Source: an uncultured Gammaproteobacteria bacterium
GTDB lineage: Bacteria; Patescibacteriota; Patescibacteriia; Patescibacteriales; GWC2-42-12
Reading direction: 5' to 3'
Length of the DNA: 64,000 nt
Assembly: GCA_964467155.1 (NCBI GenBank)
Contig: CAYXNZ010000001.1
Span: forward strand, 4,070-68,069
Positions 645 through 61,946 of this stretch are shown one piece after another. The position numbers were made by a program, and so were the translations under genes. The notes below the pieces were generated by a model that saw only the letters and a program-made list of their open reading frames with translations, was not told the origin of the DNA and made no database searches. Each line of letters opens with the position of its first letter. The first letter of the stretch is position 1.

Positions 645-3131
645 ATGGCCAAAAGAAGACGCAGAAGAAAGTATAAAAAAGATTTATTGGATTATGTGGC
701 TCTACCCAACATAGACCTTGACCCTGATATTAAAAAGGGTATTTTTATTGTGTTTTTGTTAGCTTTTGGGGCAATCAGTTTATTGAGTTTGTTTGACTTG
801 TCTGGCAGTATGGGCGTGTATTTAGCTAGAGGAATGGTGTTTCTATTCGGTTGGGGTAAATGGTTATTTCCAATAATCTTATTGGCACTTGGATTTTTGC
901 TTTATAACGAAGATAAGTATTGGGTTGGTGGAGCTAATTATCTTGGCTTATTTTTATTTATTATTTCATCGACTGGTTTATTACATTTACTGGTTGAACC
1001 ACCGAGTTGGCAAGTAGCTATTAAAGGAGGTTTCGGCGGCGGTTATTTGGGTTTTATTATAGATAGCGGGTTGTTTAAAGTAATGGGTTTTTGGGCCAGT
1101 TTAATTATTTTGTTTTGTTTGTTTTTGATTTCTGTAATGTTGATGTTTAATTTAGCTTTGCGCAACTTAATCGGAGGAGAGAGTTGGTTAGCCAAAGTTT
1201 TATATCCAATTAATTTTATTATTGGTAAATTATTTGGTAGTCGCGATGAAGACGACGAAGAAGAGGAAGAAGAATTTGAAGAGGAGGAGGAAGAAATCAA
1301 AGAAGAAGAGGAGGAAGAAGTTGACGTAGGCAGTGGTTTTGTGAGCCATAAGTTACCTACCTTTTTTGAAAACGGTAATGGTGCGACAAAAGAAAAGGTT
1401 GAATCAACATGGAAGCCAAGTAATGTAAAGATTGATTTACCACTAGATTTGATTAATGGCAGTAAGGGCAAGGCAATGAGTGGAGATATAAAAGCTCATT
1501 CAGAAATAATTAGAAAAACATTAGAAAATTTTGGTATTGTGGTTGGCATGGGAGAAGTGAGTGTTGGACCAACAGTTACCCAATACACATTAAAACCAGC
1601 CGAGGGCGTAAAGGTGTCAAGGATTACCACCTTGAGTAATGACTTAGCTTTGGCTTTGGCAGCGCATCCGATTAGAATTGAAGCACCGATTCCAGGTAAA
1701 GCCTTGGTTGGTGTAGAAGTGCCGAATCAAACAAAAGCCATGGTTGGTCTAAAGGAAATTTTATCTGGCGAGCAATTTAAAAAACGAAAAAGTAGTTTAA
1801 TGGTAGCCTTGGGCAAAGATGTCTCGGGTAAGGTTTGGATGGACGATTTAGCACGGATGCCTCATCTCTTAGTAGCGGGTGCGACTGGTTCTGGTAAATC
1901 AGTTTGTTTAAATGGAATTATTATTAGTTTATTATATCAGAATAATCCTGATGATTTACGTTTTATTTTTGTTGACCCAAAGAGAGTTGAATTACCTGTC
2001 TACAATGGCATTCCTCATTTATTAACACCAGTGATTACAGATGTTAGCAAAACTATTAATGCTTTGAAATGGTGTTTAAATGAAATGGATAGAAGATTTG
2101 AATTATTAGCCAAAACTGGCAAGAGAAATATTGATAGTTATAATGCTAATGGCAGTAATGAAAAATTACCTTACATTATTTTTATCATTGATGAATTAGC
2201 TGATTTGATGGTCGTCGCAGCTAGAGATATTGAAACAGGTATAATACGTTTGGCACAGATGGCTCGAGCCGTTGGTATTCATTTGATTTTAGCCACGCAA
2301 AGACCGAGTGTTGATGTCATCACCGGTTTGATTAAGGCCAACATGCCGGCTCGTATCGCTTTCTCAGTTGCTTCTGGTGTAGATTCCAGAACAATTCTAG
2401 ATTCCTTAGGTGCGGAGAAACTTCTTGGTCGAGGCGACATGTTATTTACCACGGCTGAAATTTCTAAGCCAAAACGTTTGCAGGGAGCTTTTGTTAGTGA
2501 TAATGAAATAAAGAGAATAGTTAATTATATAAAAGAAAAAGGTGGTGAAGCGGACTATATTGAAGGAGTGACTGATCGACAAAAAGTTAAAGGTATGGGC
2601 GGGGTTGGAATTGATGGCGCAGGTTCAGATGACGATGAACTTTTGGGTGAAGCCAAAGAAATGATTATTAATACGGGTAAAGCAAGTGCTTCTTATTTAC
2701 AAAGAAGATTGAGTATCGGTTATGCTCGAGCAGCCAGATTACTGGATTTATTAGAAGAAGGAGGAGTGATTGGTCCATCTAATGGTGCTAAGCCAAGAGA
2801 GGTGTTGATTACCCCAGAACAGTATGATAATATGATTAACCAAGGCGTTAGCGGGGTTTCTTTACATAATTCAGAAGAGTCAGAAGCGCCTGATGAATTT
2901 TTATCTTCAGATGACGAAGAAGAAGATGAAGAAGAAGAAACGAATGATGACGAAGTATTAGATGAAGATGAAGTTTTAGAAGAGGACGAGGATGTGGCAG
3001 AAGAAGACGAAGAAGTTGATGAAGAAACAGACGACGATGAAGAGGAGAACGAGGAGGATGACGAAGAAGAAAAGGAAGAAGAAACCAAAAAAGCTGAAGA
3101 CGATGATGATGGAAAATATTTTTTAAGATAA
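645..3131 (+). CDS. ftsK: DNA translocase FtsK/SpoIIIE
   Basis: It has N-terminal TM helices, Walker A GATGSGKS, IFIIDELADLM, ATQRPSVDVITG and a gamma winged-helix (ASASYLQRRLSIGYARAARLLDLLEEGGVIG). Acidic low-complexity blocks lie in the linker and after the gamma domain. Confidence 0.95.
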   Translation: MAKRRRRRKYKKDLLDYVALPNIDLDPDIKKGIFIVFLLAFGAISLLSLFDLSGSMGVYLARGMVFLFGWGKWLFPIILLALGFLLYNEDKYWVGGANYLGLFLFIISSTGLLHLLVEPPSWQVAIKGGFGGGYLGFIIDSGLFKVMGFWASLIILFCLFLISVMLMFNLALRNLIGGESWLAKVLYPINFIIGKLFGSRDEDDEEEEEEFEEEEEEIKEEEEEEVDVGSGFVSHKLPTFFENGNGATKEKVESTWKPSNVKIDLPLDLINGSKGKAMSGDIKAHSEIIRKTLENFGIVVGMGEVSVGPTVTQYTLKPAEGVKVSRITTLSNDLALALAAHPIRIEAPIPGKALVGVEVPNQTKAMVGLKEILSGEQFKKRKSSLMVALGKDVSGKVWMDDLARMPHLLVAGATGSGKSVCLNGIIISLLYQNNPDDLRFIFVDPKRVELPVYNGIPHLLTPVITDVSKTINALKWCLNEMDRRFELLAKTGKRNIDSYNANGSNEKLPYIIFIIDELADLMVVAARDIETGIIRLAQMARAVGIHLILATQRPSVDVITGLIKANMPARIAFSVASGVDSRTILDSLGAEKLLGRGDMLFTTAEISKPKRLQGAFVSDNEIKRIVNYIKEKGGEADYIEGVTDRQKVKGMGGVGIDGAGSDDDELLGEAKEMIINTGKASASYLQRRLSIGYARAARLLDLLEEGGVIGPSNGAKPREVLITPEQYDNMINQGVSGVSLHNSEESEAPDEFLSSDDEEEDEEEETNDDEVLDEDEVLEEDEDVAEEDEEVDEETDDDEEENEEDDEEEKEEETKKAEDDDDGKYFLR

Positions 3132-4412: not shown

Positions 4413-7139
4413 ATGCCAAAGAAGAAAGAAAAACAACCAAAACCAAAACCAAAAAAGAAAATTGTAAAACAGCCAGCCAAGAAAAAAGTAGTAAAACCAG
4501 TGGCTAAAAAAACAGTATCAACAAAACCAGTTACTAAAAGTACCAAGAAAGAAAAACCAGAGATAATAAAAGAGAAAACAGAAACAAAGAAAAAGGCTAT
4601 TGAAATAGACAAAAAATTAGTTGCTGAAGAAATAACTGAAGAAGCAAAAGAAGGTACAGTTAGTCGAATCGTAAATGGCCGAGAAAAAACTGAATATGGA
4701 TTAGTTCAATCCCAACCAATCGTTGAAGAAATGAGACGGTCTTATTTGGATTATGCTATGAGTGTTATTGTGGCTCGTGCTTTGCCTGATGTTCGAGATG
4801 GACTTAAACCAGTTCATCGTAGAATACTTTATGCTATGTGGAGTGTTGGTTTGAGAGCCAATGCTAAGTTTCGTAAGTCAGCTACAGTTGTTGGTGAAGT
4901 TTTAGGTAAATATCATCCACATGGCGATTCAGCTGTTTATGAATCAATGGTTAGAATGGCACAGGATTTTTCCATGAGACATCCTTTAGTTAGGGGTCAA
5001 GGTAACTTCGGTTCAATGGATGGTGATAGAGCAGCGGCTATGCGTTATACCGAAGCCAAACTAGCACCGATTGCTGAAGAGATGTTGTTTGATATAGAAA
5101 AAAATACAGTTGATTTTTCTCCAAACTTTGATGGATCTCACCAAGAGCCAAGAGTTTTACCAGCAAAATTACCTAATCTGCTTTTGAACGGAGTAATGGG
5201 TATTGCAGTCGGTATGGCAACTAATATTCCGCCTCATAATTTGAGAGAATTAGTTGGGGCAGTTATTTATTTATTAGAAAAACCTGAAGCAACAGTTGAG
5301 GAATTAATCCAATTTGTCAAAGGACCTGATTTTCCAACTGGAGGAATTATTTATAGTCAGAATGACATTAGACAGGCTTATTCAACTGGTCGAGGTGGAG
5401 TTGTTATTCGTGGACAAGCGGAGATAGTAGAAGCAAAAGCAGGTGGTTTTCAAATTATTATTTCCGAGATTCCTTATCAAGTCAATAAGGCGAATTTAGT
5501 TGAAAAGATAGCTGACTTGGTCAAGAATAAAAAATTAGAAGGCATAAGAGATTTGCGTGACGAATCAGATAAGGATGGTGTACGAGTAGTTATTGATCTC
5601 AAAAGAGATGCTTTTCCAAAAAAGATATTAAATAGTTTATACAAACAGACTCAGTTGCAGGAAACTTTTCATTTCAATATGTTGGCCTTGATTGATGGTA
5701 TTCAGCCAAAGGTTTTGAATTTGAAAATGATTTTGGAAGAATATATTAAACATCGAGAAGAAGTCGTGAAACGTCGTACTCAGTTTGATTTAGATAAAGC
5801 GAAAAGCAGAGCGCATATTTTAGAAGGTTTAATGATTGCTTTAAATAATATTGATGCGGTTATAAAAACTATTAAAGCTTCCAAAGATCGTGAAATTGCT
5901 AAAGTAAATTTAATAAAAAAGTTTAAATTAACTGAGAGACAGGCAATCGCTATTTTAGAAATGAAGCTAGCCACTTTGGCCAACTTAGAAAGACTAAAAA
6001 TAGAGAACGAATTAAAAGATAAAAAAGTTTTAATTAAAGAATTAGAAGCAATATTGAAATCAACTAAGGAGATGAGAGCTATTATTAGAACAGAAATAGA
6101 AGCTTTAGTTGAAAAATTTGGCGAGGATAGACGAACCAAAGTAATTGCTCATGGAGTCAAAGATTTTTCGGTTGAAGATTTAGTACCAAACGAAGAAACA
6201 GTTGTAGCTATGACTCGTGATGGTTATATTAAACGAGTACCAACAGATACTTTCAAAGTTCAAGGACGAGGTGGTAAAGGCGTGATCGGTCTAACGACCA
6301 AAGAAGAAGATATGGTTATGTTCTTGTTTACAACAATGACTCATAATGACATTTTATTCTTTACTACTAGCGGACGAGTTTTCCAATTAAAAGCTTATGA
6401 AATACCGCAGACAACGAGAACTGCTAAGGGAACACCAATCGTAAACTTTTTACAGTTATCTGGTGGAGAGAGTATTTCAACCATTTTGCCACTAGATAAG
6501 ATTTCAAAGAGTAAATACCTTTTCTTTGCAACTGAAAAAGGATTAGTTAAGAAAGTAAAGATTGAAGCTTTTGACAATGTCCGACGTTCAGGTTTAATTG
6601 CTATCAAAATAAAAGATAATGATAGATTGATTTGGACAAAACCAACTGATGGCAATGATCATATTGAATTAGTGACAGCTGAAGGTCAGGCAATTCGTTT
6701 CAAGGAAGCCAATGTTAGAGATATGGGTCGTGGTGCAGCTGGTGTCAAAGGAATTCGTTTGAAAAAGAAAGAGGACGCAGTTGTTGGCATGGGAGTTATC
6801 AAAAACGATAAGGAAAAAATGAAAAAATATCAGGTCTTAGTTATTACTGATAATGGTTTTGGCAAAAGAACACCATTAAATTTATACAAAGTTCAAGGAC
6901 GAGGTGGTTCAGGAGTAAAGACATCCAAGGTTACAACTAAAACTGGCCGATTGACTCAAGCCTATGTTGTCAATACGGAAACAATGAAAGATCAGGATTT
7001 AATAATAATCTCTGAAAAAGGCCAAGTTATTAGATTGCCTTTCAAAGCAGTTAATCAACTTGGGCGTGATACTCAAGGGGTTAGACTGATGAGATTTAAA
7101 GATAAAGACGATAAGGTAGCTTGTGTTACTTGGGTATAA
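4413..7139 (+). CDS. gyrA: DNA gyrase subunit A with a lysine-rich N-terminal extension
   Basis: Contains [39 protein letters not shown] and the catalytic AAMRYTE. C-terminal beta-pinwheel repeats (QGRGGKG twice) are present. Confidence 0.95.
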
Positions 7140-7426: not shown

Positions 7427-8770
7427 ATGAATTTAGATAATGTAAAAAAATTAACAATCCCTGTTTTACCTGGATGTTATGAGTTTTTTAATAAGCAAGG
7501 CAAGATTATTTATATCGGTAAGGCGGCTAATTTAAAAGCACGTGTTTTTTCTTATTGGCAAAAGAGCACTAATCATACATTAGCTAAGGAAGAAATGGTA
7601 AAGAAAGTATTTGAAATTAAATGGATAGAAACTGACAGTGAAGTAGAGGCCCTACTTTTAGAGGCAAACTTAATTAAAAAAAATAAGCCTTATTACAATA
7701 TTTTATTGCGTGATGATAAACGTTTTGTTTATATAAAAATTTCTACTGAAGAAAAATATCCTCGAATTTTTATGACTAGAGAAATAGAAAAAACTGGTCG
7801 ATATTTTGGTCCATTTACTAGTGTCGAATCAGTTCGAGAGACTTTGAAAATTATTAGAAAAATGTGGACGTATCGTTCTTGCCGTAATTTATCAAAAAAA
7901 GTTTGCTTGTATTATCGGATTGGTAAATGTCCGGGAATGTGCGAGGAAAAAATTAGTCAGACAGAGTATAAGAAAATTATTAAAGAAATAATTGATTTTT
8001 TATCTGGTAAAAAAAAGGCGATTGTGAAAAATTATGAAAAAAAGATAAAACAAGCTAATAACGAAGATGTTAATAGATTAAAATATCAATTAAATAATCT
8101 TAAAAAAGTTTTAGCAACTTCAAGCATAATCGGTGTTGGTGAAAAATATGAAAACGACGTGATTGAGTTATCGAAGGTTTTGGGTTTTGATAAAGATTTA
8201 GCCAGAATTGAAGGCTATGATATCTCAAATATTTTTGGCCGTGAAGCAGTTGGTTCAATGGTTGTTTTTAATAATGGTGAGCCAGACAAAAATGAATATA
8301 GAAAATTCAAAATAAAAATCGGCGAAGGATTAGCTAACGATACTGGAATGTTAAAGGAAATTTTAGAAAGAAGAATAAAACATAGTGTCATTCTGGAAGA
8401 AGCGAGGAACGAGCGACTGATAGAATCTCAAAACAATAAAAACAAAAGAGATACTATCGCTTCGCTCCAGCATGACAAAAAGTGGCCGTTGCCGGATCTG
8501 ATTGTCGTTGATGGAGCTCGGGCACAACTCAATGCGATTTTGTCAGTTTTAAAAAAAAGTAAGCTAAATATTTCAACCATTGCCATTTCAAAAGGTTTGG
8601 GTTTGCGTAGTGCTTTGGCGCCAGACAAGATATTTTTTCCAGGCGAGAAAAAACCATTGGAACTTCCCTTGGCTTCACCAGCTTTGCATTTGATTAAACG
8701 AGTCCGTGATGAAGCTCATCGCTTCGCTATTAATTATCATCGGAAATTAAGAAGTAAAAGATATAAATAA
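7427..8770 (+). CDS. uvrC: excinuclease ABC subunit C, short form without the C-terminal (HhH)2 domain
   Basis: It has a GIY-YIG N-terminus (PGCYEFFNKQGKIIYIGKA), a UVR-like helix, and an endonuclease domain (EGYDISN, PDLIVVDGARAQL, RDEAHRFAINYHR). The protein ends right after that motif. TATAAT at 7415-7420 lies 7 nt before the ATG, so the mRNA may be leaderless. Confidence 0.85.
   Translation: MNLDNVKKLTIPVLPGCYEFFNKQGKIIYIGKAANLKARVFSYWQKSTNHTLAKEEMVKKVFEIKWIETDSEVEALLLEANLIKKNKPYYNILLRDDKRFVYIKISTEEKYPRIFMTREIEKTGRYFGPFTSVESVRETLKIIRKMWTYRSCRNLSKKVCLYYRIGKCPGMCEEKISQTEYKKIIKEIIDFLSGKKKAIVKNYEKKIKQANNEDVNRLKYQLNNLKKVLATSSIIGVGEKYENDVIELSKVLGFDKDLARIEGYDISNIFGREAVGSMVVFNNGEPDKNEYRKFKIKIGEGLANDTGMLKEILERRIKHSVILEEARNERLIESQNNKNKRDTIASLQHDKKWPLPDLIVVDGARAQLNAILSVLKKSKLNISTIAISKGLGLRSALAPDKIFFPGEKKPLELPLASPALHLIKRVRDEAHRFAINYHRKLRSKRYK
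8386..8477 (+). repeat. family-1 palindromic element (tgtcat...atgaca) inserted in frame in uvrC
   Basis: It has the same termini as the intergenic copies. The left arm is near-identical to the leuS copy. It is translated as SVILEEARNERLIESQNNKNKRDTIASLQHD. Confidence 0.7.
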
Positions 8771-8785: not shown

Positions 8786-8876
8786 TGTCATGCCGGACTA
8801 TGATCCGGCATCCAGGAGTGAGTAGTAGGAATATAAATTTTTTCATAGATTCCGGCTCGGAGGCCGGAATGACATT
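8786..8876. repeat. family-1 palindromic element, two-hairpin form
   Basis: tgtcatgccggactatgatccggcatccagg ... agattccggctcggaggccggaatgacat. The terminal inverted repeat is tgtcat/atgaca and each arm is itself a GC-rich hairpin. Confidence 0.8.
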
Positions 8877-10361: not shown

Positions 10362-10448
10362 ACCCCATGAATATTTTTATACCAAAATTACTATAAAATT
10401 AAAATAAAAGAATTAAGTAAATTTTTATTAAAATAGTTTTTTTTATTT

Positions 10449-10472
10449 CTCTCCCTTCATTGAAGGGGGAGA
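10449..10472. repeat. CCCT/AGGG-type hairpin (family 4)
   Basis: tctcccttcattgaagggggaga is the same stem type as the hairpins at 15443-15515 and 15816-15900. Confidence 0.5.
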
Positions 10473-10688
10473 TAAAGAGGGGGTTGTTTCTGGTTGACAA
10501 ATAACTGGAAATATGTAAAAATAAAAGTGTAATTCAGAATGACACTTTTTAAGCCATTTTTACGCTAATATTCGTATAGGGGGTTTAAAAATTGTTATTC
10601 TTTGATAAAAAAGGATAACAAATTGTTCTTATAAAATCATTCCATAAGGGATGAAAAATATAAAAAAAAGGAGAGGGAGGGCAAAATC

Positions 10689-14064: not shown

Positions 14065-14070
14065 AAATTA

Positions 14071-14104
14071 ACCCGCCTGCCAAGCAAGTTCGCGAGCGGG
14101 CAGG
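14071..14104. repeat. family-2 palindromic element just past the kinase stop codon
   Basis: acccgcctgccaagcaagttcgcgagcgggcagg is about 90% identical to 47589-47621 inside rsmA. It is flanked by a 13-nt direct repeat aattaagaattag (14052-14064 and 14106-14118). Confidence 0.75.
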
Positions 14105-14146
14105 AAATTAAGAATTAGGCGAGGATTATTCTCGTTTTTTTTATCC

Positions 14147-14300
14147 CCCCCCCTCCCTAACCCTCCCCCGCAATAAATTGCAGGAGAGGGAACTATATAT
14201 TTTTTTGAAATTATTTGATATCTATCTATTTTATATTATGCGTATTCCCTCTCCCGTGAGGAACGAGCGGGGGGGGGGTTAGGGAGGGGGGATCCAGAAA
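14147..14300. repeat. long GC-rich inverted-repeat element with an AT-rich core
   Basis: cccccccctccctaaccctcccccgc ... gcggggggggggttagggagggggg form arms of about 25 nt. Inner arms are aggagagggaa / ttccctctccc. The element ends in ggatccagaaaggaatgaca, resembling family-1 ends. Confidence 0.7.
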
Positions 14301-14381
14301 GGAATGACAGAAAATTATTCTATTTACTTTTTTTAAGATTTTTGCTAATCTAATGTAGATAAGAATTAAATATTTAAAACT

Positions 14382-15571: not shown

Positions 15572-15734
15572 TGTCATCTCGAGAAGACTCATCCTTATAA
15601 AGGATGAGTTGACGAGAGATCTCTGAAATTAGTAAAAACGTAAATTATTGTAAATTGATTTTAAATAAACAAGTTGATTTAATGAGATCTTTCCTCGCCC
15701 GTCCTTTGTTAAGTCCGGGGTCGTCAAGATGACA
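15572..15734. repeat. family-1 long-form element (163 nt) with tgtcat/atgaca termini
   Basis: tgtcatctcgagaagact[hairpin]gacgagagatctct ... atctttcctcg[hairpin]tcgtcaagatgaca. Its end modules are shared with 18750-18927. Confidence 0.75.
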
Positions 15735-18749: not shown

Positions 18750-18927
18750 TGTCATCTCGAGAAGACTAATTTGTTAGTCGACGAGAGATCTCTAGAATTG
18801 AGTTAAAAGTTAATTGTTATAAAATGGTTTTAAATATTTGTGATTTCTTTTAGTATTTCTTTATTGATAATTTAATTATATTTCCCGAAATCTTTCCTCT
18901 CTCTATCTGACTATCGTCAAGATGACA
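18750..18927. repeat. family-1 long-form element (178 nt)
   Basis: tgtcatctcgagaagact...gacgagagatctct ... atctttcctc...tcgtcaagatgaca. It is a homologue of 15572-15734 with a different AT-rich core. Confidence 0.75.
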
Positions 18928-33145: not shown

Positions 33146-33175
33146 TGTCATACCGGACCACGATCCGGTATCCAG
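33146..33175. repeat. family-1 half element (left arm only)
   Basis: tgtcataccggaccacgatccggtatccag closely matches the left arm at 8786-8816. No right arm is present. Confidence 0.7.
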
Positions 33176-37046: not shown

Positions 37047-37115
37047 TGTCATTCCCGCGAAAGCGGGAATCTATTTTTTAAATTATTCTGGATTCCCGCT
37101 TTCGCGGGAATGACA
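37047..37115. repeat. family-1 element between porD and porA
   Basis: tgtcattcccgcgaaagcgggaatc ... ggattcccgctttcgcgggaatgaca forms a near-perfect 25-nt inverted repeat. Confidence 0.85.
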
Positions 37116-37969: not shown

Positions 37970-38069
37970 TGTCATCCTCGACTTGATCGGGGATCCAGAA
38001 AGTTGTAATATCGGTAAATGGTAAATCTCTAGATTCCCTCCGCCAGTTGGTGGATTCGCGGGAATGACA
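37970..38069. repeat. family-1 element upstream of porG
   Basis: tgtcatcctcgacttgatcggggatccag ... agattccctccgccagttggtggattcgcgggaatgaca. Confidence 0.75.
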
Positions 38070-40822: not shown

Positions 40823-43444
40823 ATGGAAAAATATAATCACAAAAAAATAGAAGAAAAATGGCAGGAGAAATGGGATAAAGATAAATCATATCAGACGAGT
40901 GAAGATAAAAAGAAGCCAAAATATTATATTTTAGACATGTTTCCATATCCTTCAGGAGTAGGTCTACATGTCGGTCATCCAAAAGGTTATATTGCGACCG
41001 ATATTTTTTCTCGAATGAAAATGATGCAAGGATACAACGTTCTTCATCCAATGGGTTGGGATGCTTTTGGTTTACCAGCAGAGAATTATGCTTTAGAAAA
41101 TAAAACACATCCTCGAGAAACAACTAATAAAAACGTGGCAACATTCAAAGCCCAATTGGAAAAGCTAGGTTTTACTTATGATTGGGAAAGAGAAATCAAT
41201 ACAACTGATCCAGAATATTACAAATGGACACAATGGATATTTTTGCAAATGTTTAAAAAAGGATTGGCTTATGAATCCTATGAACCTATAAACTGGTGTC
41301 CGTCATGTAAAACTGGTTTGGCTAACGAAGATTTAGAGGGTGGTCGTTGCGAACGTTGTGGAACAGAGATAGAAAGAAAGCCAATGAGACAATGGGTTTT
41401 GAGGATTACGGATTATGCTGATAGATTACTTAATGATTTAGAGAAATTGCCAGACTGGGAGGAGTCTATAAAAGAAATGCAAAAGAATTGGATTGGGAGA
41501 TCAGAAGGAGCAAGTGTGAAATTTTCTGTCATTCTGGAACAAGCGAATCAAAATGAGCGAAGTGATAGAATCTCGAGATCCTATCGCTCCGATTCATCGG
41601 AGCTCCGGGATGACAATTATAATTTAGAAGTGTTTACTACTCGACCAGATACTTTGTTCGGTTGTACTTACATGGTGGTGGCGCCAGAGCATGAGTTAAT
41701 TAAAAATCATGAGTCAAGCATAAAGAATTATAAAGAAGTTGAAAAATATATTAAGCAAGCTGGAAATAAATCTGATTTAGAGCGGACCGATTTAGCTAAA
41801 AATAAGACTGGCGTGAAAATTGAAGGATTAACAGCCATCAATCCAGTTAATAATCAAGAAATACCAATTTTTGTGGCAGATTATGTCTTAGCTGGTTATG
41901 GCACGGGAGCCATTATGGCTGTGCCAGCTCATGATGAAAGAGATTGGGAGTTTGCTAAAAAATATAAGTTACCCATAATTTGCGTAATATATCCCGAAAA
42001 AATAGAAAATTTTTCAAATTATTTTATTGAGGATGAAAAAACTGGTAAAAGTCAGTTAAGAGGAAGTACAGTTGTTTCTTATGATCCAAAAAATGAAACA
42101 ATAAAAGAAGGTATTAAAAGATTTCTAGAAGAAGTAAAAGAAGGTAAACATTGTCATATTGGTAATGGCAAATTGATAAATTCGGGGTTTTTAAACGGAC
42201 TCGGGATTAAAGAAGCAATTACAAAAATGAATGAATGGCTAGAAAAGAAAAAGGTTGGTAAGAAAGCAATTAATTATCGTTTGCAAGATTGGGTGTTTTC
42301 TCGTCAAAGGTATTGGGGAGAACCAATTCCGATTATTCACTGTGAAAAATGCGGAGCAGTTGGTGTGCCAGAGAAAGATTTGCCAGTAAAACTTCCTGAA
42401 GTAAAAAATTATGAACCAACTGGTACAGGTGAATCACCGTTAGCAAATATTTCTGAATGGGTAAATACAACTTGCCCAAAATGTGGTGGTCCAGCTAAAC
42501 GAGAAACTAACACTATGCCTCAATGGGCTGGTTCAAGCTGGTATTATTTACGTTATATTGATCCAAAAAATAAGAAAGCTTTAGTTGATAAGCAAAAAGA
42601 AAAATATTGGTCGCCGGTTGATTTCTATGTTGGTGGTGCTGAACACGCAACGCGACATTTAATTTACGCTCGTTTTTGGCACAAGTTTTTATTTGATATT
42701 GGGGCAGTTAGTCACGAAGAACCATTTAAACGTTTGCAACATGTCGGTTTAATCAATGCTGAAGATGGCCGAAAAATGAGTAAACGTTGGGGGAACGTAA
42801 TAAACCCTGACGATATAGTAGAAGATTTTGGAGCTGATTCTATGAGGGTTTATGAAATGTTTATGGGACCGTTTAGTCAGCCGTGTGCTTGGAGCACTAA
42901 TGGTTTGATTGGCGCTAGAAAATTTTTGGATAAAGTTTGGGAATCGCAATCAAAAATTAGTAAAGAAAATGATGAACAAAAAGAATTAAATAATTTATTG
43001 CATAAAACCATAAAAAAAGTTGGAGAAGATATTGAAGAATTTAAATTTAATACTGCTATAAGTGCGATGATGATTTTGGTAAACAAAATAAATGAACAAA
43101 AGAATATATCCCTAGAAACTTCTGAAAGTTTAATTAAAATCTTATGTCCATTTGCCCCACACTTATCTGAAGAACTTTGGGAAAATCTAGGTCATAAAGA
43201 AAGTATATTTAAAGAGAGTTGGCCGGAATATGATAAAGATTTAATAAAAGACGAGATGATTGAATTAGTATTGCAAATTAATGGCAAAGTACGAGACAAG
43301 ATTGAAGTTAGTGCTGATATTACCGAAGAGAAAGCAAAAAAAATAGCTCAAGAAAGCGAAGTAATTAAAAAATGGATAGAGGACAAAGAAATAATTAAAG
43401 CTATATTTGTCAAAGGTAAATTAGTGAACATTGTTATTAAATAA
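40823..43444 (+). CDS. leuS: leucine--tRNA ligase
   Basis: It has the HIGH-type motif (HVGHPKGY), a zinc-binding CPSC...CERC, the CP1 motif TTRPDTLFG, and KMSKR. Confidence 0.97.
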   Translation: MEKYNHKKIEEKWQEKWDKDKSYQTSEDKKKPKYYILDMFPYPSGVGLHVGHPKGYIATDIFSRMKMMQGYNVLHPMGWDAFGLPAENYALENKTHPRETTNKNVATFKAQLEKLGFTYDWEREINTTDPEYYKWTQWIFLQMFKKGLAYESYEPINWCPSCKTGLANEDLEGGRCERCGTEIERKPMRQWVLRITDYADRLLNDLEKLPDWEESIKEMQKNWIGRSEGASVKFSVILEQANQNERSDRISRSYRSDSSELRDDNYNLEVFTTRPDTLFGCTYMVVAPEHELIKNHESSIKNYKEVEKYIKQAGNKSDLERTDLAKNKTGVKIEGLTAINPVNNQEIPIFVADYVLAGYGTGAIMAVPAHDERDWEFAKKYKLPIICVIYPEKIENFSNYFIEDEKTGKSQLRGSTVVSYDPKNETIKEGIKRFLEEVKEGKHCHIGNGKLINSGFLNGLGIKEAITKMNEWLEKKKVGKKAINYRLQDWVFSRQRYWGEPIPIIHCEKCGAVGVPEKDLPVKLPEVKNYEPTGTGESPLANISEWVNTTCPKCGGPAKRETNTMPQWAGSSWYYLRYIDPKNKKALVDKQKEKYWSPVDFYVGGAEHATRHLIYARFWHKFLFDIGAVSHEEPFKRLQHVGLINAEDGRKMSKRWGNVINPDDIVEDFGADSMRVYEMFMGPFSQPCAWSTNGLIGARKFLDKVWESQSKISKENDEQKELNNLLHKTIKKVGEDIEEFKFNTAISAMMILVNKINEQKNISLETSESLIKILCPFAPHLSEELWENLGHKESIFKESWPEYDKDLIKDEMIELVLQINGKVRDKIEVSADITEEKAKKIAQESEVIKKWIEDKEIIKAIFVKGKLVNIVIK
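41527..41615 (+). repeat. family-1 element inserted in frame in leuS
   Basis: tgtcattctggaacaagcgaatcaaaatgagcgaagtgatagaatctc...ggagctccgggatgaca is translated as SVILEQANQNERSDRISRSYRSDSSELRDD, just before the conserved VFTTRPDT. Confidence 0.75.
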
Positions 43445-46477: not shown

Positions 46478-46942
46478 ATGTTTACAAAAAGAACAATTAC
46501 TTGGGCAATCGTGATAATTATAATTTTAGGTTTGACAGTTTGGCTAGTGCCAAACATAATAAAATACAGAAGTGCAGTCCAGGCAAGCTCAGGTTTTCCA
46601 TATCAGATTGGATTAACTAAAGTGGTGATAATTCCTTGTTTTACTATTGGAACGCCACCAGTATGTGTTGGTGGCACTTTGTGTACCGTAAAGGATGCTG
46701 CGACTTGTACATTGTATTCAGATGTTTCAGGAATGCCAGCTGGCGGTATGGGCGAGAAAGGACTTTTTTTAAATACCGCTATAACTAAAACTGGTTTAAT
46801 ATCTGGTGGGCAATTGATTGCTGGAGGTACATCTCCAGTTTTAATGGATAATGGAGTTTTAGCTTCGGTTGGTGGAGTTTCTTATGCTGTGTCCAATAAA
46901 GTAAATCAAACGATTGATTTTGTGGTTGCCTTATTTGAATAA
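46478..46942 (+). CDS. hypothetical membrane-anchored secreted protein
   Basis: It has an N-terminal TM helix and a Gly/Cys-containing extracellular part. No family was recognised. Confidence 0.45.
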   Translation: MFTKRTITWAIVIIIILGLTVWLVPNIIKYRSAVQASSGFPYQIGLTKVVIIPCFTIGTPPVCVGGTLCTVKDAATCTLYSDVSGMPAGGMGEKGLFLNTAITKTGLISGGQLIAGGTSPVLMDNGVLASVGGVSYAVSNKVNQTIDFVVALFE

Positions 46943-46946
46943 AATT

Positions 46947-47846
46947 ATGGATATATATCAACAAACATTAGAACTGTGTAAACAGTATAATATTAAACCT
47001 GCTCGTTCCAAAGGGCAGAATTTTTTAATTAAAGAAGAAGTTTACAATAATATTATTGAAGCAGCTGATTTGAAAAAAGATAATATTGTTTTGGAGATTG
47101 GACCTGGCTTGGGTTTTTTAACAACCAAATTAGCTGATAAAGCAAAACAGGTAATAACAATAGAACTAGATGATAAATTAGCAAAGTATTTAAAGTTTAG
47201 TTTGGAGATACAAAAAATAAAGAATGTTGAAATTATAAACGAGAATATTTTAGATATTGAAATTGAAAAGTTGAAAGTTAAAAATTTTGAATATAAGATT
47301 GTTGCTAATTTGCCATATAATATCACTTCTATTTTTTTGCGCAAATTTTTATCTTTAAAAAATAAACCAAACACAATGGTTTTGATGTTGCAAAAAGAAG
47401 TAGCAGAGAGAATTTTAGCCAAACCAGGCAAAATGAGTTTACTGGCTGTGTCAGTTCAATATTATGCTGAGCCAGAAATAATTGACTATGTCCCAGCTAA
47501 TGCTTTTTGGCCAGAGCCTCAAGTAGATAGCGCAATAGTTAAGTTGAAAGTCAAAAGTCCCTCCAATTCGGCGGGCAGGCAAAAGTCACCCGCCTGCCAA
47601 GCAAGCTTGCGAACGGGCAGGAAAGTTAAACAGGTTGGTGTGGATAAGGAAAGAGATTTTTTTAGATTAATAAAGTTTGGTTTTAGCTCAAAACGAAAGA
47701 TGTTGAAGAATAATTTATCTGTTGGGTACAAAATAACCCAAGAATTAGCAGAAAATAAACTAAAACAAGTAGGTTTTGACCCAAAAATTAGAGCACAAGA
47801 ATTGTCAGTTGAAGGTTGGGTTAAATTGTTTGGAGAATTTAATTGA
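46947..47846 (+). CDS. rsmA: 16S rRNA (adenine1518/1519-N6)-dimethyltransferase RsmA/KsgA
   Basis: The start is moved to MDIYQQT (46947). SKGQNFL, the motif I sequence LEIGPGLGFLT, NLPYNITS and PQVDSAIV are present. It contains a 25-codon repeat-derived insertion. Confidence 0.9.
   Translation: MDIYQQTLELCKQYNIKPARSKGQNFLIKEEVYNNIIEAADLKKDNIVLEIGPGLGFLTTKLADKAKQVITIELDDKLAKYLKFSLEIQKIKNVEIINENILDIEIEKLKVKNFEYKIVANLPYNITSIFLRKFLSLKNKPNTMVLMLQKEVAERILAKPGKMSLLAVSVQYYAEPEIIDYVPANAFWPEPQVDSAIVKLKVKSPSNSAGRQKSPACQASLRTGRKVKQVGVDKERDFFRLIKFGFSSKRKMLKNNLSVGYKITQELAENKLKQVGFDPKIRAQELSVEGWVKLFGEFN
47547..47630 (+). repeat. family-2 element inserted in frame in rsmA
   Basis: acccgcctgccaagcaagcttgcgaacgggcagg (47589-47621) matches 14071-14104. 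It is bounded by aaagtcaaa / aaagttaaa exactly 75 nt apart, and encodes SPSNSAGRQKSPACQASLRTGRKVK. Confidence 0.75.
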
Positions 47847-49952: not shown

Positions 49953-52900
49953 ATGAAAATTAGTCAAATAAGAACAAAATTAATTATTTTTTTAATATTA
50001 TCAATATCTATAATATTGTTTTTTTCTCCATTTATAGGAGTAAAAGCAGCAGATAGTTTTGCGCCATTTCAAATTGAAAAAGGGAGTTTGTCTGGAAATG
50101 ATTTAACAGCTGGCTATAAAATAGAAACTAGAGCTGACGGAACTGAATGGGTTGTTAAACAAGGAGCAATAGAAAGAACAATGAATCAAGTAAAAACCTG
50201 GGCCATTGATGAGGCATGGAAAGAATTAAAAAAATCAAGTGCAGTTGCATTCAAGCAGTCTTTAAAAAAATATCTTAATACTTTGGCTTATGATATGGCT
50301 ACTTATATAGCCACTGGTGACAAAGGACAAGCACCAATGTTTGAAGTTGATAGTTTTGGTGATTTTGTAAGAAATGCAGCGGATGATTATACAGGATATT
50401 TTATAGAAGAACTTGGTAAAAAAGGAATGTGGGGAACTAAATTTAATCTTTGTGAGCCTGATCCGAATGTTAAACTAACGATAAGTCTAGGTTTACAAAA
50501 AATTTCTCGTCCTGATAAGCCGGAATGTACTTTTACAGAAATGAAGAAAAATTGGGATGAAGCTCTGAGTGATCCAAATTTTTTGAATGATTTTCAGGAC
50601 ATGTTTAATCCATGGTCAAATGATTTAGGTATAGCTTTAACGTTACAAACAGGAATGGAAACAGGTGCTAGTCAAGCGGCTGAAGATGCAGCAAACGAAC
50701 GTTTGGAAGGAATGGGTATAAAGGCTAAAACTGACCCAGTAAGTGGAAAAATTAAAACACCTGTAACAATAGTTAGAGAATTTTTTTATAAACCAATAGA
50801 AGATTCATCTGCTTCGGAAAAAATTTTTACAGGTTCTATAGCAGCAGATGTAATTGATGTTTTTTTGAATACTTTGTTGGGCAAATTGGTTGATAAATGG
50901 TTAGACGAAGGTATCGTGACTGATTTTTTTTCAGACAGCAACTCTGCTGATTATACTTATTCTGGTTCTGGTGGAGGAATAGCTGCAGCAAAAGAAAGAT
51001 TTAAAAGTTTAATTGAACCACAGTTTGGTGTTCGGGGTGACTATGATATTTTAGCAGAATTAACGATGTGTTCTGACCCGACTAAAGCTGGACCAACTAA
51101 TTGTGTTATTACAGATAATTTTCGCCAGGCAATTGAAAACCGATTGACGGTTGGGCAGGCGCTAACACAAGGATATTTAAATACGAGTGGAATTTTTGGT
51201 TTTAATGCAGATGGTTTGGAGCCAAATTACAATGAAGGTTATCCGTATCGTTCTATGATAATTTTAAGAAAATTTAGGATATTACCGGTTGGTTGGGAAC
51301 TAGCAGCAGAATATATTAAAGATCATCCAGCAGAGATTGACGGAACAAAAAATTTAGGTGATTTAGTAGCTTGTTATTCAGCTAGCGATGATTATAACGG
51401 GTATTATGCTAATTGGTGTGATGGGCTGGTTGACCCGACATGGGTTTTGAAAGCGCCGTTGAACTATTGTAAGCGCGAAGGTGCTGGACCAGAAATAATT
51501 TCTGAGCAAATTATGGGTGAAGGGTACGACAGCGAATTGACGATATTGAGAGATGACACTTATTGTGCTGATGAGCAGTCCTGCATCCAGGAAAATAGTG
51601 ATGGTTCGTGTAATCTCTATGGCTACTGCACAGAAGAGAGGCGAACATGGAATTTTAATGCTGATTCGTGCGATCCAATTTATAATACTTGTCAGACTTT
51701 CCGTAGTTCAGACGGACAAACAATATCTTATTTAGAAAATACTTTGGATTATGGTATTTGCTCTATTGATAATGTCGGTTGCCAGGCTTATTGTCAGGAT
51801 TACGATAATACAACTGAAAATTACACTTGTACCGAGAGTACTGGTGATAAAATATATTTAGATAGTAATGCCGAAGAATGTTCGGCTGAAAATGAAGGCT
51901 GCCACGAGTTTATTAGAATGAAACCTGGATTGGGTGCAAACATTTTAACTAATTCTGGTTTTGAAGACGATATTGATGGGACGATTTGGCAAGGCGCAGG
52001 AACGCAGGTTTATGATAGTTACGAAGGCAGTCGAGGGTTGGAACTAGTTAGTAATTTATCAAAAACTATTACTTTTGGACCAAATGATTATAATGTAGCT
52101 GGTCAGTATTTTTCCCTATCTTTTTATGCTAAAGATTGTGGTTTGGGAGACAATTTTGAACTAGGTGAGCAAGAAACAGCAACTAGTTTAAATCAAGCTG
52201 AGGATTGGCAATATTATAATACAGCGTATGTTTATTCAACGGATTTTAATTCTAATCAAGTAAACTTTTCTATAAATTCTGATTCTTGCGTGATTGACGC
52301 AATTAAATTAGAACGCGGACAAGTCACTACGACTTATAGTGATTATCGTGGGCAGGGTTTAGTCTATCAAAAATTAGCACCTGATTATTTGTCATGTGAT
52401 GGCGTGGGTGATTCGTCAGCCTGTGATAATTTTGCTCGTACTTGTTTAGAAGATGAAGTTGGTTGTGAAATGTATACTTCAGTCAACGATGATATAAGCG
52501 TGGCAGCAAAAGTTGTAGCACAAGATTATTGTCCGAGTGAATGTGTTGGTTACGATACCTATATTCAAAGTGAGACGATTTTTGATTCTCTACGTGATTC
52601 ATATTTTATTCCAACTACAGCTCAAGTCTGTGGAGCAGAAGCCGTTGGCTGTGATGAATTTACGAATTTAGACGAAGTGGAGTCTGGTGGCGAAGCACGA
52701 GAATATTATTCTTATTTAAGACAATGTATTGGTGTAAATGATAGTCAATGTGCCGAATTTTACACATGGGAAGGTTCTGATGAATCTGGTTATCAATTAA
52801 AAGTTCTGGTGTTAAAAGAAAACCAGACAACCGGCGAGCCAGCATTAACAGAAGATGATTCTACACAATGTAATGAAGCAATTTATAATTTAGACGAAAC

Positions 52901-57518: not shown

Positions 57519-57521
57519 GGT

Positions 57522-57568
57522 GTCTGAACCACTGAAGCACACTGAAAAAACTGAATTACACTGATAAA
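57522..57568. repeat. left inverted repeat flanking the GxxExxY gene
   Basis: gtctgaaccac is followed by reiterated cac(a)tgaa units. It is the partner of 57964-58010. Confidence 0.65.
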
Positions 57569-57660
57569 TATTGAAAATTATGGATTATATTGATGATAAA
57601 TAGTATAAGTCGGATATTACGGCAAAAATAATTAAGGGCGCTTATCAGGTACATAATAAT

Positions 57661-57963: not shown

Positions 57964-58010
57964 ATCATGTGTTTTCAGTGTATTCATGTGTGAATTCATG
58001 TGGTTCAGAC
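57964..58010. repeat. right inverted repeat flanking the GxxExxY gene
   Basis: The reverse complement reads gtctgaaccacatgaattcacacatgaatacactgaaaacacatgat. Confidence 0.65.
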
Positions 58011-58014
58011 GATT

Positions 58015-58596: not shown

Positions 58597-58601
58597 TTTT
58601 A

Positions 58602-61055: not shown

Positions 61056-61068
61056 TAATTTAATAAAC

Positions 61069-61920: not shown

Positions 61921-61946
61921 TGTCTAATTACTAATTTAAAAAGTAA

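What the first reader, a model, noticed from the sequence alone, without database searches (positions are those of the whole stretch)
8386..8477. Palindromic intergenic-type element translated in frame inside uvrC (RPE-like behaviour)
Seen: a GC-rich segment of about 92 nt is bounded by tgtcat...atgaca, the same termini as the intergenic elements at 8786-8876, 37047-37115, 37970-38069, 15572-15734 and 18750-18927. Its left 45 nt is nearly identical to the copy inside leuS (41527-41615). It reads through as SVILEEARNERLIESQNNKNKRDTIASLQHD, between the conserved EILERR and PDLIVVDGA blocks of the UvrC endonuclease domain. As far as I recall, homologues have only a short variable linker at this point. 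Both genic copies use the same element frame (GTC ATT CTG GAA = VILE, ending (C/G)AT GAC). Established knowledge: Rickettsia palindromic elements insert in frame into protein genes. Inference: an analogous selfish element family operates in this genome and adds peptide loops to essential proteins.
Basis: partly seen in the sequence, partly recalled or inferred. Interest (0 to 1): 0.75.

Follow-up and report, generated by a model that had tools for sequence, protein, structure and literature searches.

The report
Hairpin repeat translated inside uvrC
A 92-base hairpin-forming repeat, of the kind that travels with small GIY-YIG "Ssn" nucleases, sits in frame inside the DNA-repair gene uvrC (a sister copy is in leuS) of a candidate-phyla-radiation bacterium, adding a floppy 30-residue loop much as Rickettsia palindromic elements do.

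Summary
Window 8386-8477 is bounded by TGTCAT...ATGACA, folds as a hairpin (z = -4.6), and is read in frame as residues 321-350 of a 447-aa UvrC. Solved UvrC structures have 0-6 residues at this point, and 22 of 61 parsed relatives have 4-5. The closest relative without it (75% identity) has an empty site. The closest relative overall (78%) has an orthologous, longer copy.

The element is two inverted hairpin units: TGTCATTCTGGA, a covarying stem-loop, then GATAGAATCT. In the sister contig the same units directly flank a 101-aa single-domain GIY-YIG gene just downstream of uvrC, and they abut homologous genes in nine other genomes. That is the architecture published in 2025 for Ssn nucleases and their NTS/SRM repeats. 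The two-unit elements line up with that cassette minus its gene. There is no target-site duplication.

leuS carries a second copy at an equally permissive linker. Both sites are recurrent insertion spots across Patescibacteria. Units of this subfamily also lie in frame in SecA, RecG, TrmD, MnmA, Map and other genes in other phyla.

This is a new member of known kinds, and of moderate interest. No Ssn-type gene was found in the 64-kb window or about 20 kb of flanks (the only small GIY-YIG ORF, 5.3 kb past the end, is YhbQ-like and lacks flanking units), and mobilisation by Ssn is inferred.

The parts
7427..8770 (+). uvrC, 447 aa: GIY-YIG domain plus UvrC RNase H-like endonuclease domain. Host gene of the insert.
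   Evidence: ORF. Pfam PF01541 and PF08459. Matches to solved UvrC structures.
8386..8477 (+). The in-frame element: two inverted hairpin units plus a spacer, encoding residues 321-350 (VILEEARNERLIESQNNKNKRDTIASLQHD).
   Evidence: fold z = -4.6; empty site in L001, orthologous copy in L003; pLDDT below 50 for residues 323-351.
8386..8429 (+). Left unit: TGTCATTCTGGA, core AGAAGCGAGGAACGAGCGACT, then GATAGAATCTC.
   Evidence: Matches the pattern TGTCATTCTGGA-N15-36-GATAGAATCT. The core keeps the 2 WC / 2 purine-purine / 2 WC stem. It differs at 3 of 44 nt from an intergenic unit in Patescibacteria MAG locus L106.
8430..8447 (.). A-rich spacer between the two units.
   Evidence: Aligns with the spacer of the L003 orthologue and with the gene-proximal ends of the L003 GIY-YIG cassette.
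8448..8477 (-). Right unit in inverted orientation. Its reverse complement is TGTCATGCTGGA-GCGAAGC-GATAGTATCTC, with a minimal GC-GAA-GC core.
   Evidence: Read from the sequence. Aligned to other two-unit elements.
40823..43444 (+). leuS, 873 aa. Host of the second genic copy.
   Evidence: ORF. Matches to solved LeuRS structures. Homologues.
41527..41615 (+). Second in-frame element: left unit 41527-41574 and inverted right unit 41575-41615, with no spacer. It encodes VILEQANQNERSDRISRSYRSDSSELRDD.
   Evidence: T. thermophilus and E. coli LeuRS have about 5 residues here. The closest LeuS, P0122, has an empty site.
8786..8874 (.). Intergenic two-unit element of a sister subfamily (TGTCATGCCGGA... 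/ ...GCCGGAATGACA). It lies just downstream of uvrC, at the spot where L003 carries the unit-flanked GIY-YIG gene.
37047..37115 (.). Intergenic two-unit element made of two inverted TGTCATTCCCGCGAAAGCGGGAATC units. Both match the published SRM search pattern and are close to the Neisseria NTS consensus.
   Evidence: 2 pattern hits against 0.06 expected. NTS consensus. Fold z = -12.
37970..38069 (.). Degenerate intergenic two-unit element. Together with 37047-37115 it brackets the POR gamma and ferredoxin genes.
15572..15734 (.). Longer element with TGTCAT termini (subfamily TGTCATCTCGAG...), a paralogue of 18750-18927.
   Evidence: (repeat family D13).
18750..18927 (.). Longer element with TGTCAT termini, a paralogue of 15572-15734. 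The pair brackets a three-gene block.
   Evidence: (repeat family D13).
33146..33172 (+). Solo unit TGTCATACCGGACCACGATCCGGTATCCA, 88% identical to the left unit at 8786.

Best explanation
**What it is.** Window 8386-8477 is a non-autonomous, hairpin-forming DNA repeat inserted in frame into the linker between the first sheet/helix and the next strand of the UvrC endonuclease domain. It is made of two inverted units.

**Unit structure.** Each unit reads 5'-T GTCAT TCTGGA, then a variable stem-loop, then GATAGAAT CT-3'. It has a closing ATTCT/AGAAT stem, a purine-purine internal loop, and a stem that varies by compensatory changes.

**Family.** The units belong to the class of repeats that flank small single-domain GIY-YIG genes, the Ssn / NTS-SRM system. 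The two-unit form looks like that cassette with the gene deleted, as a MITE relates to its insertion sequence.

**History.** The insertion happened before the window organism and the L003 organism diverged. It has since been carried as a 30-residue hydrophilic, probably disordered surface loop.

**Why it survives.** Its length keeps the frame ((L-2) mod 3 = 0). The frame used is the only open one in that orientation. The site tolerates extra residues.

**What it evolves as.** It behaves as a DNA element, not a protein segment: amino-acid identity is lower and synonymous-site identity higher than in the flanks.

**Shown:** repeat identity, unit structure, empty and occupied sites, association with GIY-YIG genes in relatives, and absence of target-site duplication.

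**Inferred:** that an Ssn-type ssDNA nuclease, acting in trans, spreads the units by a single-strand hairpin route that leaves no duplication, and that the insert is translated and harmless.
For: - **Repeat and fold statistics:**
- **Insert relative to solved UvrC structures:**
- **Empty site and orthologue:** L001/P0003 has an empty site. L003/P0002 has an orthologous 137-nt copy whose spacer is also similar.
- **Cassette in the sister contig:** L003:6333-6638 encodes a 101-aa GIY-YIG protein (Pfam E = 7e-13). It is flanked by units at 6280-6318 and 6640-6678, and further two-unit elements follow.
- **Same arrangement elsewhere:** homologous GIY-YIG genes (tblastn E from 1e-10 to 7e-31) abut units in nine more loci from Patescibacteria, Clostridia, Fibrobacterales and Pseudomonadales.
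- **Two-unit elements match the cassette minus its ORF:**
- **Published precedent:** NTS-ssnA-NTS architecture, ssDNA cleavage just 5' of the hairpin, and dependence on the GTC triplet (PMC11893778).
- **Canonical copies in the window:** 37047-37115 matches the published SRM pattern twice, against 0.06 expected.
- **Unit stem covariation:** 46 double-sided changes against 13.9 +/- 3.1, reached by 0 of 500 shuffles. The covariation score is 0.368, against at most 0.127 in the slid controls.
- **No target-site duplication** at any of the 7 window copies.
- **Structure prediction:** AlphaFold2 gives pLDDT below 50 for residues 323-351, flanked by blocks of 82-90.
- **Open frames:** only the used frame is open in the sense orientation.
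- **DNA-level constraint:** inside the element, amino-acid identity is 0.60 and third-position identity 0.83. Outside, the values are 0.82 and 0.59.
- **Generality:** 18 of 142 units in other genomes lie in long open frames. 9 of 10 tested hosts are bona fide genes: SecA, RecG, TrmD, MnmA, Map, HemA, CobA-HemD and two glycosyltransferases.
Against: - The uvrC and leuS copies do not match the published SRM search pattern, because their loops are longer.
- No Ssn-type gene lies in the window or in about 20 kb of flanks. The only small GIY-YIG ORF nearby (L123:16945-17187) is YhbQ-like, only 32% identical to the L003 protein, and not flanked by units.
- Homology of the L003 protein to N. meningitidis SsnA (cd10448) was not tested. 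NCBIfam and PDB searches gave nothing useful.
- No near-identical paralogues were found in the window, so there is no sign of recent movement.
- Nobody has shown that Ssn enzymes transpose their repeats. The source paper only raises the idea.
- Translation of the insert is inferred from the intact frame only.
- The third-position test rests on 18 codons.
Confidence: 0.75

Rival explanations
1. The units spread by recombination or repair, not transposition. Existing hairpin repeats act as landing pads or as gene-conversion partners. Breaks made at hairpins, by Ssn or by replication stalling, are repaired by copying another repeat. This would explain why the same protein sites are hit repeatedly by different subfamilies.
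For: - The UvrC linker is occupied in 39 of 61 parsed homologues by at least three unrelated repeat families. The LeuS linker carries several subfamilies with the TGTCAT terminus.
- Occupied UvrC sites share the flank K-H-S/T.
- One homologue, P0038, has three elements in tandem at the site.
- There is no target-site duplication.
- Synonymous-site identity is raised inside the element.
Against: - Copies occur at many unrelated loci and genes in many phyla. This requires de novo insertion at naive sites at least sometimes.
- The window and L003 copies are best matches of each other, including the spacer. That points to vertical descent and not to replacement.
Confidence: 0.15
2. The genic copies are kept because they are useful. 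They could be Ssn cleavage sites inside essential genes that limit allelic replacement by incoming single-stranded DNA during natural transformation, or the loop could have acquired a function in UvrC or LeuS.
For: - In Neisseria, NTS repeats around genes lower transformation of those regions in an SsnA-dependent way (PMC11893778).
- The insert has persisted over a divergence of about 22% at the protein level, with its terminal DNA motifs intact.
Against: - Close relatives do well without the insert (P0003, P0122).
- Insert sequences at the same site are unrelated between lineages.
- The loop is predicted to be disordered.
- No Ssn gene was found near the window.
Confidence: 0.06
3. The segment is not part of the mature protein. 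It could be removed from the transcript, or the gene could be a decaying pseudogene.
For: - The element forms a strong hairpin.
- Candidate-phyla-radiation bacteria are known, from my own knowledge, for intervening sequences in rRNA and tRNA genes.
Against: - All three genic copies examined (uvrC in the window and in L003, and leuS) have lengths that keep the frame and contain no stop codon. Five of six intergenic two-unit elements have other length classes.
- The uvrC copies in the window and in L003 differ by in-frame indels of 6 and 39 nt.
- No Rfam family matches anywhere in the window.
- The flanking UvrC and LeuS sequence is highly conserved.
Confidence: 0.03
4. The segment is an ordinary lineage-specific loop or an assembly chimera, and its similarity to the repeats is coincidental.
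For: None beyond the modest 81% arm identity within the window.
Against: - The sequence is identical in two independent assemblies.
- It matches the units flanking the L003 GIY-YIG gene at E between 1e-5 and 7e-5.
- TGTCAT...ATGACA pairs are 12-fold enriched.
- The unit architecture is shared with 142 copies in other genomes.
Confidence: 0.01

Closest known systems
Rickettsia palindromic elements (RPE; Ogata et al. 2000 and 2002, as summarised in PMC10969869)
   Same: - Palindromic repeats of about 90-150 nt that insert in frame into unrelated housekeeping genes.
- They add a peptide segment at positions compatible with the protein fold.
- They also occur between genes.
- The host has a reduced genome and a host-dependent lifestyle.
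   Different: - The phylum is different (Patescibacteria).
- Sequence relatedness to RPE-1 to RPE-10 could not be tested.
- Here the element resolves into two inverted hairpin units that also flank a GIY-YIG gene.
- Insertion sites are reused by several repeat subfamilies across relatives.
- Chenal et al. list Rickettsia among genomes with more than 300 SRM elements, so the two families may overlap. No paper in the held library links RPEs to GIY-YIG.
NTS / SRM hairpin repeats and the Ssn family of single-domain GIY-YIG ssDNA nucleases (Chenal et al. 2025, PMC11893778)
   Same: - A GTCAT motif lies 5' of a hairpin, with a GAATC-Y tail.
- The units flank a GIY-YIG gene of about 100 aa on both sides, in inverted orientation.
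- There are many copies per genome, across many phyla.
- The window copy at 37047-37115 is nearly the Neisseria NTS consensus and fits the published pattern.
   Different: - The uvrC/leuS subfamily (TGTCATTCTGGA...GATAGAATCT) has a longer two-tier stem with tandem purine-purine mismatches and fails the published pattern.
- The paper does not mention the words 'in-frame' or 'intragenic', and does not mention Patescibacteria.
- No ssn gene was seen in this window.
- Homology of the L003 protein to SsnA itself was not tested.
REP / REPIN elements and their RAYT (IS200/IS605-like) transposases
   Same: - Short hairpin units occur as inverted pairs that fold into a long hairpin.
- They are dispersed in many copies and linked to a single-copy gene that they flank.
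- There is no target-site duplication.
- The presumed mechanism involves a single-stranded DNA hairpin.
   Different: - The associated gene is a GIY-YIG nuclease, not a Y1 HUH transposase.
- The conserved 5' motif is GTCAT, not GTAG.
- REPs are, by name and from my own knowledge, mostly extragenic, whereas these are often translated.
Classical bacterial MITEs (Correia, QMITE, ERIC and others; PMC10969869, PMC5896051)
   Same: - Small non-autonomous elements with terminal inverted repeats.
- They are sometimes fused in frame to host ORFs.
- They appear derived from a larger gene-carrying element by internal deletion.
   Different: - No target-site duplication was found at any of the 7 copies.
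- There is no DDE transposase parent.
- The ends are structured hairpin units with compensatory variation, not simple inverted repeats.

Membership tests
Ssn-related motif (NTS/SRM) hairpin repeats | A conserved GTCWY motif immediately 5' of the hairpin, which gives the unit an orientation. | tested here: met
   TGTCAT begins both units of the uvrC and leuS elements and all other window copies.
Ssn-related motif (NTS/SRM) hairpin repeats | A semi-palindromic core likely to form a hairpin. | tested here: met
   - The subfamily has an ATTCT/AGAAT closing stem plus a variable stem.
- Double-sided changes: 46 cells against 13.9 +/- 3.1, reached by 0 of 500 shuffles.
- Watson-Crick pairs in the 7 outer core positions: 4.36 against 1.69 in shuffled cores.
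- The uvrC left core keeps the pattern. The leuS left core is degenerate.
Ssn-related motif (NTS/SRM) hairpin repeats | A match to the published degenerate search pattern HGTCWYN(0-2)YYVSBRHN(0-5)WNVSBRGN(0-2)RNCYNB. | tested here: not met
   Only 37047-37074 (+) and 37088-37115 (-) match. The uvrC and leuS units and all L003 units fail because of their longer cores.
Ssn-related motif (NTS/SRM) hairpin repeats | Units flank a single-domain GIY-YIG (ssn) gene of about 100 aa. | tested here: met
   - Met in relatives: L003:6333-6638 is flanked by units at 6280-6318 and 6640-6678.
- Nine more loci have a homologous gene next to units.
- Not met in the window itself: tblastn finds nothing in 64 kb.
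Ssn-related motif (NTS/SRM) hairpin repeats | The associated protein belongs to the SsnA clade (CDD cd10448, or E below 1e-10 to N. meningitidis SsnA). | not tested
   No SsnA sequence or CDD library was available. Pfam GIY-YIG E = 6.8e-13. NCBIfam and PDB gave no informative hit.
Ssn-related motif (NTS/SRM) hairpin repeats | The cognate Ssn cuts single-stranded DNA next to the hairpin. | not testable with these tools
   This needs a biochemical assay.
Rickettsia palindromic elements (RPE) | A palindromic repeat inserted in frame in conserved protein genes without disrupting them. | tested here: met
   uvrC and leuS ORFs are intact. The inserts are absent from solved homologues and from the closest relatives.
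Rickettsia palindromic elements (RPE) | The inserted peptide lies at a position compatible with the fold (surface or loop). | tested here: inconclusive
   The AlphaFold2 model has pLDDT below 50 for residues 323-351, between confident blocks. Low confidence is consistent with a disordered loop but does not prove one. The overall model is only moderate (mean pLDDT 70.9).
Rickettsia palindromic elements (RPE) | Sequence similarity to an RPE family consensus. | not tested
   No RPE sequences were available. The Genome Research 2002 paper is not held.
Rickettsia palindromic elements (RPE) | The host is Rickettsia. | tested here: not met
   UvrC and LeuS relatives are named Patescibacteria, Falkowbacteria or Parcubacteria.
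Classical MITE | A target-site duplication flanks the terminal inverted repeats. | tested here: not met
   The flanks of all 7 window copies show no direct repeat.
REP/REPIN-RAYT | Inverted pairs of hairpin units that flank, and are mobilised by, a Y1 (IS200/IS605-like) RAYT gene. | tested here: inconclusive
   The two-unit architecture is present. The flanked gene is a GIY-YIG. No search for a RAYT gene was made. The 5' motif is GTCAT, not GTAG.

The most novel reading that the evidence does not exclude
The SRM-ssn-SRM cassette may be a true mobile element of a new class: a GIY-YIG nuclease acting on single-stranded hairpins, with no target-site duplication. Its gene-less two-unit derivatives would behave like REPINs or MITEs. 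They would colonise permissive linkers of essential proteins across several phyla (Patescibacteria, Fibrobacterota, Clostridia and Gammaproteobacteria MAGs), reusing the same protein sites again and again. On this reading the Rickettsia palindromic elements would be one branch of the same system, and a long-open question (what moves RPEs, and why they end up in frame) would become testable.
Probability: 0.3. Interest if true: 0.8.

Novelty: new member of a known kind. Interest (0 to 1): 0.55.

Why it matters
**Selfish DNA shaping essential proteins.** Hairpin DNA repeats are remodelling essential proteins (UvrC, LeuS, and probably RsmA in this same window) in candidate-phyla-radiation bacteria. 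These genomes are usually described as streamlined.

**A link between two literatures.** One is the 25-year-old puzzle of in-frame palindromic elements in Rickettsia. The other is the 2025 discovery of Ssn single-strand nucleases and their hairpin repeats. I found no paper in the held library that connects the two.

**Practical consequences**
- Such inserts inflate and diversify protein lengths in metagenome-assembled genomes.
- They create spurious 'lineage-specific loops' in alignments and structure predictions.
- They mark sites where extra peptide is tolerated.

Tried and rejected
- **Rfam:** a scan of the whole window at gathering thresholds found no family, so the element is not a known structured RNA.
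- **Published SRM pattern:** it matches only the copy at 37047-37115, not the genic copies.
- **Ssn-like gene in the window:** tblastn with the L003 GIY-YIG protein found nothing.
- **Extending the contig:** 10 kb beyond each end gave only a YhbQ-like GIY-YIG ORF embedded in a tRNA cluster, without flanking units.
- **NCBIfam and PDB searches with the L003 GIY-YIG protein:** uninformative.
- **Two metagenome scans:** one looked for an empty uvrC site in conspecific strains, the other for the uvrC-type left unit. Both found nothing. The second did not recover the window's own sequence, so that collection does not hold this organism and the negatives carry no weight.
- **DNA for P0128:** this is the LeuS with a homologous insert, but its DNA could not be fetched.
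- **Ogata 2002 RPE paper:** not held, so RPE sequence similarity was not tested.
- **Literature searches:** no paper in the held library describes palindromic or REP-type elements in candidate-phyla-radiation bacteria, or links RPEs to GIY-YIG.
- **A fixed reading frame as a property of the family:** rejected. Other genomes use five different frames. The bias towards VILE...xD follows from stop codons built into the unit: TGA in ATGACA and TAG in GATAGAATCT.
Full report
**1. The observation**

The window is low in G+C (33%). Its UvrC and LeuS relatives are named Patescibacteria, Falkowbacteria or Parcubacteria, so it comes from a candidate-phyla-radiation genome.

- ORF 7427-8770 (+) is a 447-aa UvrC with a GIY-YIG domain and a UvrC RNase H-like endonuclease domain.
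- At 8386-8477 lies a 92-nt segment bounded by TGTCAT...ATGACA. It is read in frame as residues 321-350, VILEEARNERLIESQNNKNKRDTIASLQHD.
- As single-stranded DNA it folds at -16.7 kcal/mol, z = -4.6. Its GC is 0.41, against 0.31 for the rest of the gene.
- TGTCAT...ATGACA pairs spaced 50-200 nt apart occur 7 times in the window. Dinucleotide shuffles give 0.60 +/- 0.81, with a maximum of 4 in 300.
- The left arm matches the left arm of the copy in leuS (41527-41615) at 39 of 48 columns, E = 5e-6.
- uvrC, insert included, is base-for-base identical in two independent assemblies. The segment is not an assembly artefact.

**2. It is an insertion**

*UvrC*
- Alignments to three solved UvrC endonuclease domains break at exactly this point. 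Those structures have 0-6 residues where this protein has 32-34.
- Of 120 close homologues, 61 could be parsed at the site. 22 have a 4-5 aa linker (F-N/K-N-D/S) and 39 carry inserts of 13-99 aa.
- The closest homologue without an insert, P0003, is 75% identical. At the DNA level it has an empty site...AGAAGATTTAATAATAGCTGGCCG....
- The closest homologue overall, P0002, is 78% identical and lies on contig L003. It has a longer copy (137 nt, L003:5771-5907) at the same position. That copy shares the termini and the A-rich spacer with the window copy and is its best match.
- The insertion therefore predates the split of these two lineages. The copies have since differed by in-frame indels of 6 and 39 nt.

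*LeuS*
- T. thermophilus and E. coli LeuRS have about 5 residues between ...F.V and ...TTRPDT, where the window protein has 30 more.
- The closest LeuS, P0122 (71% identical), has an empty site.
- P0128 has a homologous insert.

**3. Anatomy**

Each genic element consists of two units in inverted orientation.

- *uvrC left unit (8386-8429):* TGTCATTCTGGA, core AGAAGCGAGGAACGAGCGACT, then GATAGAATCTC.
- *uvrC spacer (8430-8447):* 18 nt, A-rich.
- *uvrC right unit (8448-8477):* its reverse complement is TGTCATGCTGGA-GCGAAGC-GATAGTATCTC.
- *leuS:* the two units (41527-41574 and 41575-41615) abut with no spacer.

The hosts include:
- many Patescibacteria lineages;
- Clostridia;
- Gammaproteobacteria and Pseudomonadales MAGs;
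- Fibrobacter;
- one Acidobacteria MAG.

The 142 units recovered have 118 distinct cores. The cores form a stem that varies by compensatory change:
- On the 37-nt length class, 46 cells are changed on both sides, against 13.9 +/- 3.1 in shuffles. 0 of 500 shuffles reach the observed value.
- The covariation score is 0.368, against at most 0.127 when partners are slid by 1-3 columns.
- Two central positions are mostly G.A / A.G pairs.

The units are therefore selected as hairpins. None of the 7 window copies has a target-site duplication.

**4. What the units belong to**

A full-text search for the terminal sequence found Chenal et al. 2025 (PMC11893778). That paper reports:
- Ssn, a family of small single-domain GIY-YIG nucleases that cut single-stranded DNA next to hairpin repeats;
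- the Neisseria NTS repeat, CGTCATTCCCGCGMAVGCGGGAATCYRG, and the generalised SRM motif;
- that these repeats typically flank the ssn gene on both sides;
- that the authors liken the arrangement to an insertion sequence and to REP/RAYT.

The window and its relatives fit this picture:
- Window 37047-37115 is two inverted near-consensus NTS units. Both match the published SRM pattern, 2 hits against 0.06 expected.
- In the sister contig L003, a 101-aa GIY-YIG gene (Pfam E = 7e-13) lies immediately downstream of uvrC. It is flanked by units of exactly the uvrC/leuS subfamily, and further two-unit elements follow.
- At the syntenic spot in the window (8786-8874) there is only a two-unit element.
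- Homologues of the L003 protein abut units in nine more loci from four phyla.
- The two-unit elements align end to end with the L003 cassette once its ORF is removed. They look like internal-deletion derivatives of the cassette.

There are caveats:
- The genic copies fail the published pattern.
- No Ssn-type gene lies in the window or in about 20 kb of flanks. The only small GIY-YIG ORF nearby is YhbQ-like and not flanked by units.
- Homology to SsnA itself was not tested.

**5. Why it is tolerated, and why this frame**

- AlphaFold2 gives pLDDT below 50 for residues 323-351, flanked by blocks of 82-90. This is consistent with a floppy loop.
- In the sense orientation only the used frame is open. 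TGA within ATGACA and TAG within GATAGAATCT close the other frames.
- The symmetric open frame (V-I-L-E ... x-D) requires (L-2) mod 3 = 0. All three genic copies meet this. Only one of six intergenic two-unit elements does.
- Between the window and L003, amino-acid identity inside the element is 0.60, against 0.82 in the flanks. Third-position identity at conserved residues inside is 0.83 (15 of 18), against 0.59 (n = 343) in the flanks. This is what a DNA-level constraint would produce, not a protein-level one. The sample is small.

**6. Generality**

- 18 of the 142 units lie in frames that stay open for at least 60 codons on both sides.
- Pfam confirms 9 of 10 such hosts as real genes: SecA, RecG, TrmD, MnmA, methionine aminopeptidase, HemA, CobA-HemD and two glycosyltransferases.
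- 12 of the 18 use the VILE frame or its mirror frame, and 6 use others.
- The UvrC and LeuS linkers are recurrent insertion spots. Relatives carry other subfamilies with the same terminus (VILRPQAEESR...ILRSAQDD, VILNEAERNEES...LRYAQND, VIASEAKQS..., CHPERSGAE...). UvrC relatives also carry unrelated proline/glycine-type hairpin repeats.

**7. Comparison with known systems, and verdict**

The behaviour is that of Rickettsia palindromic elements. The repeat class is that of the NTS/SRM-Ssn system. The two-unit, no-duplication architecture recalls REPIN/RAYT. The element is not a classical MITE, because it has no target-site duplication.

I found no paper in the held library that describes such elements in candidate-phyla-radiation bacteria, or that links RPE-type coding insertions to GIY-YIG nucleases.

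- It is a new member of known kinds.
- Confidence that it is an in-frame hairpin-repeat insertion is very high.
- Confidence that an Ssn-type nuclease moves it is moderate. That step is inferred, not shown.

Noticed in passing
window 46914-47846 (about 47569-47624) and 14065-14107: The rRNA adenine dimethyltransferase-like ORF (RsmA/KsgA; it carries the QNFLIKEEV motif) contains an in-frame copy of a different hairpin repeat (...CGGCGGGCAGGC...CCCGCCTGCCAAGCAAGCTTGCGAACGGGCAGG...). It is read as ...SAGRQKSPACQASLRTGRK.... It is 88% identical to an intergenic copy lying right after the stop codon at 14064. This would be a third protein in the window remodelled by a repeat.
   Followed up: partly
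UvrC homologues, alignment A1 columns 238-280 and the C-terminus: UvrC has a second variable spot, between the helices before LKYQL. It also carries repeat-like inserts in relatives, for example SVIANEAERSVAIS... in P0038. P0016 has a proline/leucine-rich C-terminal extension.
   Followed up: no
window 37047-37115 with 37970-38069, and 15572-15734 with 18750-18927: Two-unit elements bracket gene blocks: the POR gamma subunit plus ferredoxin, and a PolB-exonuclease-like gene plus an unknown gene plus an S1-domain protein. This recalls the NTS-gene-NTS arrangement described for Neisseria.
   Followed up: partly
window 10445-10480 and 14260-14316: Hairpins of a third family, C-rich/G-rich (TCTCCCTTCATTGAAGGGGGAGA). 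A degenerate GTCAT unit has a poly-C/CCCTCCC hairpin embedded in it. The same family seems to give the SPPTPLL...RRGE / IPPSPF.KGG inserts seen in UvrC relatives.
   Followed up: no
window 7427-8770 and homologues P0001-P0120: These Patescibacteria UvrC proteins are short (about 416-425 aa without inserts). They show only GIY-YIG, UvrC_M and RNase H-like domains. No C-terminal helix-hairpin-helix domain was reported by Pfam.
   Followed up: no
L123:16400-17300 (about 5 kb beyond the window's 3' end): An 80-aa YhbQ-like GIY-YIG ORF sits inside a cluster of tRNA-like sequences, and its C-terminus runs into one of them. It is surrounded by repeated ...CCCCGCCAGGGCGGGGTAAACTCAGCTTGTCCCGCTA(C/T)GGCGGGAGCACCTCTCCA... 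segments.
   Followed up: no
window 49953-64000 and L123: A 2521-aa ORF with no Pfam hit is followed by a conjugation / type IV secretion-like block: TrbL_3, PrgI, TraC-like, TraG P-loop, two 23S_rRNA_IVP proteins and a PDDEXK_3 protein. This may be an integrated mobile element.
   Followed up: no
window 1248-1331 and 2889-3116 (FtsK-like ORF 645-3131): Long acidic GAA/GAT-rich low-complexity tracts (repeat family D1) lie inside the FtsK/SpoIIIE-like gene.
   Followed up: no
L122:3001-5397 (P0122 leuS, the empty site): The empty LeuS linker reads ...TTTTCAATTTCCAATGATGAAATTGAT.... The stretch GATGAAATT resembles the element end plus flank in the window (GATGACAATT). This could be a footprint of an old excision, or a coincidence.
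   Followed up: no
L106 (Patescibacteria MAG JBDRJA010000044), reverse strand from about position 474: An intergenic two-unit element whose left unit differs at only 3 of 44 nt from the left unit inside the window's uvrC. It is the closest paralogue found.
   Followed up: partly
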